From the human T2T-CHM13v2.0 reference genome, Homo sapiens: DNA of 64,000 nucleotides. Below the pieces are notes generated by a model. It saw only the letters and a program-made list of their open reading frames with translations, did no database searches and had not been told where the DNA came from. A program made the position numbers and the translations under genes. Shown piece after piece: positions 57,701-58,890 of this stretch. Positions within the stretch are counted from its first letter, which is position 1, and each line of letters starts with the position of its first letter. The stretch spans positions 30,912,001-30,976,000 of the forward strand of contig CP086569.2 of the NCBI GenBank assembly GCA_009914755.4. The letters are read 5' to 3'.

Positions 57701-58140
57701 TGAATGGAATCAAATCAATGGAATCAAATCAAATGGAATGGAAAGGAATTGAATGGAGTAGATTGGATTGGATGGGATTGGAATGAAATGTACTGGAAAG
57801 GACTCGAATTTCATGAAACGGAATGGAATGAATTGGAACGGAATGGACTCGAATGGAATGGAATGTCATGGAATGGCATCAAATGGAATGGCATCAAATG
57901 GAATGGAATCGAATGTAATGGAATGGAATGCATTGGAATGGAATGTCCTCTAATGGAATGGATTCGAGTGGAATGGAATCGAATATAATGGAGTCGAATG
58001 AAATGGAATTGAAAGGAATGGGATCGAATAAAATGGAATATACTGGAATGTAATGTAATGAACTCGAATGTATTTGACTGGAATGGAATGTACATGAATG
58101 GAATGTAATCGAATGGAAAGTAATCCAATGGAATAGAATC
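54800..58140 (+). repeat. HOR unit 16, terminal and truncated (3341 bp; ends at unit offset ~3340), more degenerate than interior units
   Basis: The anchor is at 54800 and the array ends at 58140, just after '...gtaatccaatggaatagaatc'. Several point changes and small indels depart from the neighbour consensus (55100-55200, 55850-55960, 57340-57400, 57900-57930). Confidence 0.75.
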
Positions 58141-58890
58141 ATATATGATATATAATATATGTATAATATTGTTTTACATCCTGCATCTTATGTTATATAT
58201 ATTGTATAAAATATAATAATTGATTATATATACTTTTATAACATAATTTACATAAAATATCATAATATAATATATATTATATTATTTCATATTACATAAT
58301 ATATATTACATATCACCCAATATAAGTAACATACATAATATTATAATATAGATTATATTATGTTATATTAAATATCATATATATCATGTATCATATATTC
58401 TATAATATATATTATACATTATATAATATGTATGTTGTCTATTATGTGATATATATAACTATATATATAATTATATTGTTATACATATAACTAGATAAAC
58501 ATGTAATTCTACATATTTTCATTTATAATATATAGAATTATATAATCATATATAATTATTTATATTCTATAAAAAATTATATCATTATATAAATTATAAT
58601 ATATAAAAATTATAATATGTACTACAAACATATATATTATATATCATATATGATATAGTACCTTTGTTATATATCATAATACATATAAATGTGTATTATG
58701 TTATCTATAATTATATACTTTCATATATAAGATGTATAATATGTATTATTTATTATATACGTTATGTAATATATATAGTATATATAAGCTGACACAGGAT
58801 AAATATTATATACTATGACATATAAAATATATGAGGTTATATGTTACATATAAGGCATAGCACATAACATGTAATATATATCATATATAA
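58141..58890. repeat. AT-rich segment of the first DYZ2-type unit, only ~750 bp (internal ~770-bp deletion relative to full units)
   Basis: 58141-58227 aligns to 59790-59877 of the next unit (atgtataatattgttttacatcctgcatcttat...aattgat). 58228 onward aligns to 60645 onward (atatatacttttataacataatttacataaaatatcataatataat...). Confidence 0.75.

What the first reader, a model, noticed from the sequence alone, without database searches (positions are those of the whole stretch)
58100..58260. Exact DYZ1-to-DYZ2 breakpoint: the array switches within a single base step, with no transitional sequence
The GGAAT array ends at unit offset ~3340 ('...gtaatccaatggaatagaatc'). The next base starts the DYZ2 AT-rich segment, about 30 bp upstream of 'atgtataatattgttttacatcctgc'. 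There is no target-site duplication, spacer or other sequence between them. If every DYZ1/DYZ2 boundary on Yq12 uses this same breakpoint pair, the alternating-block architecture arose by amplifying a composite DYZ1+DYZ2 super-unit. Independent breakpoints would instead indicate repeated invasion.
Basis: partly seen in the sequence, partly recalled or inferred. Interest (0 to 1): 0.5.

Follow-up and report, generated by a model that had tools for sequence, protein, structure and literature searches.

The report
DYZ1-to-DYZ2 satellite junction on human Yq12
This is one of the known boundaries between the two satellite arrays that alternate along the human Y long-arm heterochromatin; it is real and abrupt, but it is a small three-breakpoint patchwork rather than a clean one-base switch, and whether other boundaries share it could not be tested here.

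Summary
The switch is real. Bases 1-58140 hold 16.4 units of DYZ1/HSat3 (GGAAT-type, about 3.55 kb period). Bases 58141-64000 are DYZ2/HSat1B (2,420 bp period). DYZ1 homology ends exactly at C58140; all 16 other in-window copies of that site continue TAATGCAATAAAA.

"No transitional sequence" is not correct. Three discontinuities lie within 85 bp:
- 58138-58160 is an exact 23-nt reverse complement of a conserved DYZ2 site about 490 bp downstream. The collinear DYZ2 sequence matches only 16 of 20.
- 58158-58224 is forward DYZ2, starting 54 nt into the AT-rich part.
- At 58224/58225 the copy skips 768 bp, so the first unit is 1,648 bp.

The overlaps at the three joints are ATC, TAT and T. This pattern suggests microhomology-primed template switching or templated end joining, but that is inferred.

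Published work already reports duplications spanning several DYZ1/DYZ2 blocks and size change through gain and loss of arrays. The papers I could read contain no base-level survey of junctions. The feature is an ordinary, already known kind. The composite joint is a useful barcode for the proposed survey.

The parts
1..58140 (+). DYZ1 (HSat3-type, GGAAT-derived) tandem array. It holds 16 units when cut at the breakpoint phase, plus a partial unit at the window start. The last unit (54603-58140, 3,538 bp) is full length.
   Evidence: Period 3,534-3,569 bp and HaeIII/EcoRI spacing. Units are 98.0-99.5% identical to each other. The last unit is 99.4% identical to the consensus, so there is no decay at the edge.
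58138..58140 (+). Joint 1: ATC is shared by the end of DYZ1 (GAATC) and the start of the inverted DYZ2 piece (3-nt microhomology). C58140 is the last base with DYZ1 homology.
58141..58160 (+). 20-nt non-collinear stretch ATATATGATATATAATATAT. Together with the preceding ATC it is an exact 23-nt reverse complement of DYZ2 58632-58654, 61052-61074 and 63471-63493.
   Evidence: An exact 20-mer match elsewhere in the unit is expected in 1e-4 to 2e-3 of trials under three null models. The collinear DYZ2 site 59793-59812 matches only 16/20. The template site is present, inverted, in all 5 contaminant DYZ2 contigs that cover it.
58158..58224 (+). Forward DYZ2 AT-rich sequence equal to 59810-59876 (1 mismatch). 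It starts 54 nt after the start of the AT-rich part. TAT (58158-58160) overlaps the inverted piece (joint 2).
   Evidence: All 13 other DYZ2 copies examined (2 in the window, 11 contaminant contigs) have the canonical ...ATATAACCTATGTATAATATTG here.
58224..58225 (+). Joint 3: jump to DYZ2 position 60644 onward (lag 2,420). This is a 768-bp deletion of AT-rich sequence (59877-60644) relative to the next two units, with 1-nt (T) microhomology between similar AT-rich motifs. The first DYZ2 unit is 1,648 bp instead of 2,420 bp.
   Evidence: The deletion joint is absent from the 11 contaminant copies. Published size data: 93.7% of Yq12 DYZ2 units are 2,420 bp and 98.6% are 2,000-2,999 bp.
58225..64000 (+). 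DYZ2 (HSat1B) array. It holds the rest of unit 1 (to 59788), unit 2 (59789-62208) and a partial unit 3. Each unit is AT-rich part, then an antisense 5'-truncated Alu (58892-59182, 61312-61602, 63731-63995), then the HSATI part ending in ACATACG (59750-59756).
   Evidence: Period 2,420 bp. Alu alignment at 77% identity and Alu-derived mir-1268-like sub-threshold hits. Unit 1 vs unit 2 is 99.0% identical; unit 2 vs unit 3 is 97.2%.
58632..58654 (-). Presumed template of the inverted 23-mer. It overlaps an 18-nt perfect palindrome TATATCATATATGATATA (58640-58657) and recurs at 61052-61074 and 63471-63493.

Best explanation
This is a boundary between a DYZ1 (HSat3) array and a DYZ2 (HSat1B) array of the human Yq12 heterochromatin. 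It was made by a non-homologous, microhomology-guided joining event, not by homologous exchange or transposition.

Shown: the joint is a mosaic. DYZ1 ends at ...GAATC. A 20-nt inverted copy of a DYZ2 site about 490 bp downstream follows, primed on the shared ATC. After a TAT overlap come 67 nt of forward DYZ2 from near the start of its AT-rich part. After a 1-nt overlap there is a jump over 768 bp, and then regular DYZ2.

Inferred: the three switches within 85 bp arose together, by serial template switching of a broken or stalled 3' end. Candidate routes are MMBIR/FoSTeS-type replication repair, or polymerase-theta-type end joining with snap-back synthesis.

Inferred from the literature, not tested here: the joint was then carried along passively when multi-block segments of Yq12 were duplicated by unequal exchange. 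If so, many DYZ1-to-DYZ2 boundaries should carry the same composite joint. The junction itself has no known function.
For: - DYZ1 homology ends exactly at 58140 in comparison with 16 sister copies.
- The exact 23-nt inverted match recurs in every DYZ2 unit and in 5 of 5 independent copies that cover the site. Its chance probability is 1e-4 to 2e-3.
- The collinear alternative needs 4 substitutions in 17 nt, against 1 in the next 67 nt and 15 in the following 1,565 nt. My Poisson estimate for that is about 3e-5 at 1% divergence.
- The 768-bp skip occurs only in this edge unit, not in 13 other copies.
- Microhomologies of 3, 3 and 1 nt sit at the three joints.
- No foreign sequence is present; every base is accounted for by DYZ1 or DYZ2.
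- Literature: iterative tandem duplications of up to 5 Mb spanning several DYZ1/DYZ2 blocks, attributed to unequal exchange. Yq12 length tracks the number of arrays rather than array size.
Against: - The sequence is AT-rich and nearly palindromic, so short exact matches are commoner than in ordinary DNA. I found the inverted match after looking, so the p-values are post hoc.
- Length variation of the AT-rich part is common in DYZ2. The 768-bp skip could therefore be a later, unrelated slippage deletion.
- Only one junction was seen. Nothing here shows that the three discontinuities arose in one event, or that other junctions share them.
- No significant hairpin energy was found at the joint or at the template.
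Confidence: 0.55

Rival explanations
1. A simple one-step blunt or ATC-microhomology join of DYZ1 to forward DYZ2 at about position 33-37 of the AT-rich part. The edge unit then decayed independently through four point substitutions and a separate slippage deletion of 768 bp.
For: - An ungapped collinear alignment gives 16/20 matches, then 66/67.
- A gapped alternative shares ATCATATAT with canonical DYZ2.
- The AT-rich part is known to vary in length, and divergent units are reported to accumulate at array ends.
Against: - Four changes in 17 nt stand against about 1% divergence elsewhere in the same unit.
- Those four changes would have to create, by chance, an exact 20-23-nt match to another DYZ2 site. 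This happened in at most 0.2% of simulations.
- The adjacent DYZ1 unit shows no edge decay.
Confidence: 0.25
2. Each DYZ2 block entered DYZ1 separately (repeated invasion). Under this view the present joint is private to this block, and other boundaries sit at unrelated phases of both units.
For: Nothing in the window speaks for it. Rhie et al. conclude that the HSat1B and HSat3 arrays were seeded independently, but that statement concerns the origin of the two satellites, not of each block.
Against: - About 43 independent insertions of arrays of 20-1,200 kb would be needed.
- Published dot plots show duplications that span several blocks.
- Array number varies by gain and loss of whole arrays.
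- Unit orientation is uniform (96% antisense) and the DYZ1:DYZ2 unit ratio is near 1:1.
Confidence: 0.1
3. Assembly artefact: a chimeric join of a DYZ1 contig and a DYZ2 contig.
For: Yq12 is the hardest part of the Y chromosome to assemble. An abrupt switch is what a false join would look like.
Against: - Assemblers join through long identical overlaps, and DYZ1 and DYZ2 share none. The overlap here is 3 nt.
- The joint carries a templated insertion and an edge-specific deletion, which are typical of real repair junctions.
- Alternation of the two arrays is established by FISH and by many assemblies.
Confidence: 0.03

Closest known systems
Annotated HSat3 (DYZ1) / HSat1B (DYZ2) block boundaries of Yq12 in T2T-Y and in the 43- and 142-genome Y assemblies (10.1101/2022.12.01.518724; 10.1101/2022.12.01.518658; PMC13252187)
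   Same: Same two satellites, the same unit lengths (about 3.55 kb and 2,420 bp), the same tripartite DYZ2 unit with the ACATACG motif, and the same antisense orientation. The window is almost certainly one of these boundaries.
   Different: The texts I could read refine the boundaries manually or by RepeatMasker pattern. They give no base-level anatomy or comparison of DYZ1/DYZ2 junctions. Only the breakpoints of the two Yq12 inversions were analysed at nucleotide level.
Complex rearrangement junctions made by replicative template switching (FoSTeS/MMBIR) or by polymerase-theta-mediated end joining with templated insertions (named from my own knowledge, not from a paper read here)
   Same: Several breakpoints are clustered within under 100 bp. 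Microhomology at each joint is 1-3 nt. There is a short inverted insertion copied from a site a few hundred bases away. No target-site duplication or foreign DNA is present.
   Different: The mechanism is inferred from a single ancient junction in low-complexity DNA. There is no parental allele, no timing information, and no evidence that the three joints are simultaneous.
The 2.7-kb repeat array next to DYZ18, whose unit is a DYZ18-DYZ1 composite (Hallast et al.)
   Same: It is a join between two unrelated Y satellites that was subsequently amplified as a composite. This is a precedent for amplifying a fused unit.
   Different: There the composite is itself the tandem unit (2.7 kb). Here the proposed super-unit would be whole arrays hundreds of kilobases long.
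3' breakpoint of the proximal Yq12 inversion, described as lying at the intersection of a DYZ2 AT-rich simple repeat and a DYZ1 subunit (Hallast supplement)
   Same: It involves the same kind of place, a DYZ2 AT-rich part abutting DYZ1.
   Different: That is an inversion breakpoint. In the window both arrays keep the majority orientation relative to each other as far as can be seen, and no sequence was available for comparison.

Membership tests
DYZ1 (Y-specific HSat3 / HSat3A6) | Tandem unit of about 3.5-3.6 kb delimited by HaeIII sites | tested here: met
   GGCC spacing is 3,534-3,569 bp for most units. The autocorrelation peak is at 3,544-3,569 bp.
DYZ1 (Y-specific HSat3 / HSat3A6) | Built from diverged GGAAT/ATTCC pentamers | tested here: met
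   TRF finds period 5, consensus GAATG, 64% matches over 50001-58139. The sequence is visible.
DYZ1 (Y-specific HSat3 / HSat3A6) | High identity to the published DYZ1 consensus | not testable with these tools
   No reference DYZ1 sequence or human genome is reachable. Only within-window identity of 98.0-99.5% was measured.
DYZ2 (HSat1B) | Unit of 2,420 bp | tested here: met
   A lag of 2,420 bp gives 84% ungapped identity. The HaeIII pattern 2,146+204+25+45 sums to 2,420.
DYZ2 (HSat1B) | Tripartite unit: AT-rich simple repeat, 5'-truncated Alu about 20% diverged, and HSATI part, with ACATACG at the HSATI/AT-rich intersection | tested here: met
ACATACG is at 59750-59756. GC is 0.14-0.24 in the AT-rich stretches and 0.35 in those holding the Alu and HSATI parts.
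DYZ2 (HSat1B) | Near-identity to independent human DYZ2 copies | tested here: met
   Eleven contaminant contigs in bacterial assemblies are 96-99% identical, mostly without gaps.
Replicative template-switch or templated end-joining junction (FoSTeS/MMBIR, TMEJ) | Microhomology at the breakpoints | tested here: met
   ATC, TAT and T at the three joints.
Replicative template-switch or templated end-joining junction (FoSTeS/MMBIR, TMEJ) | Templated insertion copied from nearby sequence | tested here: met
   An exact 23-nt inverted copy of a site 490 bp away. The chance probability is 1e-4 to 2e-3.
Replicative template-switch or templated end-joining junction (FoSTeS/MMBIR, TMEJ) | All joints formed in a single event | not testable with these tools
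   This needs other copies of the junction or an ancestral allele.
Transposon or retrotransposon insertion | Target-site duplication flanking the inserted element | not testable with these tools
   The distal end of the DYZ2 block is outside the window. The published block sizes (20-1,200 kb) argue against insertion by transposition.
   Only one junction is in the window. Searches for the junction 23-mer found one chance bacterial match and nothing else. The junction-specific ORF is not on record.

The most novel reading that the evidence does not exclude
The composite joint (DYZ1 ...GAATC, then the inverted 20-mer, then 67 nt of forward DYZ2, then the 768-bp skip) is shared by most or all DYZ1-to-DYZ2 boundaries of this polarity in all men. 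That would show that the whole alternating Yq12 architecture descends from a single template-switch fusion of the two satellites, which was then multiplied by unequal exchange. The joint would then serve as a clock and marker for block genealogy.
Probability: 0.4. Interest if true: 0.45.

Novelty: already known. Interest (0 to 1): 0.25.

Why it matters
[quoted passage not shown] A junction that carries three linked, improbable marks is a specific barcode. Counting how many boundaries carry it, across T2T Y assemblies, would separate identity by descent (amplification of composite blocks) from independent joins. It would also allow block genealogies to be drawn. The outcome would refine the unequal-exchange model that is already favoured rather than overturn it, so the finding is of modest interest.

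Tried and rejected
1. Looking for the junction elsewhere:
- The junction creates an ATG for an 82-aa minus-strand ORF (57894-58142); canonical DYZ1 has TAG there. An exact look-up found no gene on record.
- A homology search with the 97-aa stop-to-stop frame gave 4 short chimeric proteins from contaminated assemblies, none spanning the joint.
- The 23-mer GGAATAGAATCATATATGATATA gave one metagenome hit, L001. It is a chance match inside a low-GC bacterial coding region.
- The same 23-mer gave no hits in genome contigs or viral contigs.
- The deletion joint gave no hits in viral contigs or in the fetched loci.

2. A DYZ2-specific 26-mer did find 11 human contaminant contigs in bacterial assemblies. 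They were useful as canonical DYZ2 copies, but none reaches a DYZ1 boundary.

3. Literature: no base-level comparison of DYZ1/DYZ2 junctions appears in the main texts of the three Y-assembly papers or in the Hallast supplement. The journal versions were not held.

4. Hairpin or cruciform potential at the joint and at the template is not better than in shuffled sequence. I make no structural claim.

5. Rfam found only sub-threshold Alu-derived mir-1268-like hits.

6. My first MAFFT alignment misaligned the AT-rich part. My early coordinate for the last DYZ1 base (58141) was off by one and was corrected to 58140.

Full report
**What is there**

The window falls into two parts. From base 1 to 58140, GC is about 0.38 with a strong G-over-C skew. 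From 58141 on, GC is 0.14-0.35 with no skew.

The left part is a pentamer-derived satellite: TRF reports period 5 and consensus GAATG. It has a higher-order period of 3,534-3,569 bp and HaeIII and EcoRI sites at that spacing. These are the classical properties of DYZ1.

The right part repeats every 2,420 bp. Its HaeIII sites give a 2,146-bp fragment. Each unit has three components:
- an AT-rich stretch;
- a more GC-rich stretch ending in ACATACG.

This matches the published description of DYZ2/HSat1B, including the 2,420-bp consensus and the ACATACG motif (Hallast et al., 10.1101/2022.12.01.518658).

Eleven contigs in bacterial genome assemblies turned out to be human DYZ2 contamination. They are 96-99% identical to the window's units and served as independent canonical copies.

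**The observation**

The quoted strings are present. Cutting the DYZ1 array at the phase of the break gives 16 units. All 16 other copies of ...CCAATGGAATAGAA(T/A)C continue with TAATGCAATAAAA, whereas the last one continues ATATATGATATA. DYZ1 homology therefore ends exactly at C58140.

The last DYZ1 unit (54603-58140) is full length and 99.4% identical to the consensus, no worse than interior units. The DYZ1 side is clean.

The DYZ2 landmark string starts 18 bp after the break, not about 30 bp.

**The DYZ2 side is not a simple entry**

A local alignment to the next unit at lag 2,420 is perfect only from 58224 onward.

The 84 bp before that match a different place in the unit, 59793-59876, at lag 1,652. 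So the first DYZ2 unit lacks 768 bp of AT-rich sequence (59877-60644) and is 1,648 bp long. In published counts, 93.7% of units are 2,420 bp and 98.6% are 2,000-2,999 bp. None of the 13 other copies examined has this skip.

Within those 84 bp, the last 67 (58158-58224) match canonical DYZ2 with one mismatch. The first 17 carry four mismatches. All 13 other copies read ATATAATATATATAACCTAT there.

The stretch 58138-58160, ATCATATATGATATATAATATAT, is an exact reverse complement of DYZ2 58632-58654. The same site recurs in the next two units and in all five contaminant contigs that cover it, always in the inverted sense.

I tested how often an exact 20-mer match elsewhere in the unit arises by chance:

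| Null model | Exact 20-mer matches / trials |
|---|---|
| Canonical 20-mer with four uniform random substitutions | 20 / 200,000 |
| Canonical 20-mer with four substitutions drawn from the AT-rich composition | 412 / 200,000 |
| Random 20-mers from an order-3 Markov model of the AT-rich part | 158 / 200,000 |

In addition, only 6 of 1,200 native 20-mers of the AT-rich part have a second copy in the unit.

The joint therefore reads as follows:
- DYZ1 up to ...GAATC;
- an inverted 20-nt copy of a DYZ2 site about 490 bp downstream, overlapping DYZ1 by ATC;
- 67 nt of forward DYZ2 from position 54 of the AT-rich part, overlapping the inverted piece by TAT;
- a 768-bp skip with a 1-nt overlap;
- regular DYZ2.

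**How it most likely arose**

Shown: three discontinuities lie within 85 bp, with microhomologies of 3, 3 and 1 nt and a templated inverted insertion. There is no foreign DNA.

Inferred: this is the signature of a repair or replication event with serial template switching. Candidates are MMBIR/FoSTeS, or polymerase-theta end joining with snap-back synthesis (both named from my own knowledge). It does not look like a blunt join that later decayed.

The decay alternative needs four substitutions in 17 nt, where the rest of the unit differs from its neighbour at 1% (15 in 1,565). Those substitutions would also have to recreate another DYZ2 site by chance.

I keep the decay alternative at about 0.25 for three reasons. 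The DNA is low-complexity. The match was found post hoc. Length change in the AT-rich part is common, so the 768-bp skip may be a separate event.

Neither the joint nor the template folds better than shuffled sequence.

It cannot be answered from one junction, and no human Y assembly is reachable with these tools.

My attempts all failed: a junction-specific ORF look-up, a protein homology search, and exact-pattern scans of metagenome, genome and viral collections.

The literature already favours amplification of composite segments:
- Rhie et al. report iterative tandem duplications of up to 5 Mb spanning several DYZ1 and DYZ2 blocks, and attribute them to unequal exchange.
- A 2026 preprint on 84 complete Yq12 regions finds that length tracks array number, not array size, with uniform orientation and a 1:1 unit ratio (PMC13252187).

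I found no base-level comparison of DYZ1/DYZ2 junctions in these papers or in the Hallast supplement. Only the two inversion breakpoints were analysed at nucleotide level.

**Comparison with what is known, and verdict**

This is a member of an already known class, a Yq12 DYZ1/DYZ2 array boundary. It is almost certainly one of those annotated in public assemblies.

What I add is its fine anatomy.

Neither outcome of that survey would overturn current views. I score interest at 0.25. The most novel reading still open is that the composite joint is common to most boundaries and marks a single founding fusion. I put that at about 0.4, with interest 0.45 if true.

Noticed in passing
window 7028-9030 and 30330-33288: Two DYZ1 units carry large internal deletions. 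One is 2,003 bp long (about 1,545 bp missing at 7243/7244). The other is 2,959 bp long (615 bp missing at 31544/31545). All other units are 3,534-3,569 bp.
   Followed up: partly
window 40412-54602; also 26786-36847 and 12590-19707: Runs of neighbouring DYZ1 units are more alike (99.0-99.5%) than the array background (98.0-98.9%). This suggests local duplications of a few units.
   Followed up: no
window 48814; window 7028-9030: An extra HaeIII site lies at 48814 inside one DYZ1 unit. The EcoRI site is lost in the deleted unit, giving an EcoRI spacing of 5,557 bp.
   Followed up: no
window 58224-64000: DYZ2 units 1 and 2 are 99.0% identical, but units 2 and 3 are only 97.2% identical. Divergence between neighbours is therefore uneven close to the array edge.
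   Followed up: partly
L002-L012 (e.g. LZSC01000004.1 Mycobacterium sp., CALPCJ010000037.1 Senimuribacter sp., BMRF01000089.1 Actinomadura cremea): Eleven species-representative bacterial genome assemblies contain contigs of 0.6-2.5 kb that are human DYZ2/HSat1B, 96-99% identical to the window. This is human contamination in the deposited assemblies.
   Followed up: partly
window 58640-58657, 61060-61077, 63479-63496: An 18-nt perfect palindrome TATATCATATATGATATA occurs once per DYZ2 unit and overlaps the template of the inverted insertion. It shows no significant hairpin energy.
   Followed up: partly
window 59848-60274: A 230-bp internal tandem duplication (1.8 copies, 75% matches) lies in the AT-rich part of DYZ2, within the 768 bp missing from the first unit.
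   Followed up: no
window 58892-59182, 61312-61602, 63731-63995: The Alu fragment of DYZ2 lies on the minus strand, so the units are antisense in this window. That is the orientation reported for 96% of Yq12 units.
   Followed up: partly
L001 2930-2952 (JAEEGL012731543.1): The junction 23-mer has one exact chance match inside a low-GC bacterial coding region of a metagenome contig. It is unrelated to the satellite.
   Followed up: yes
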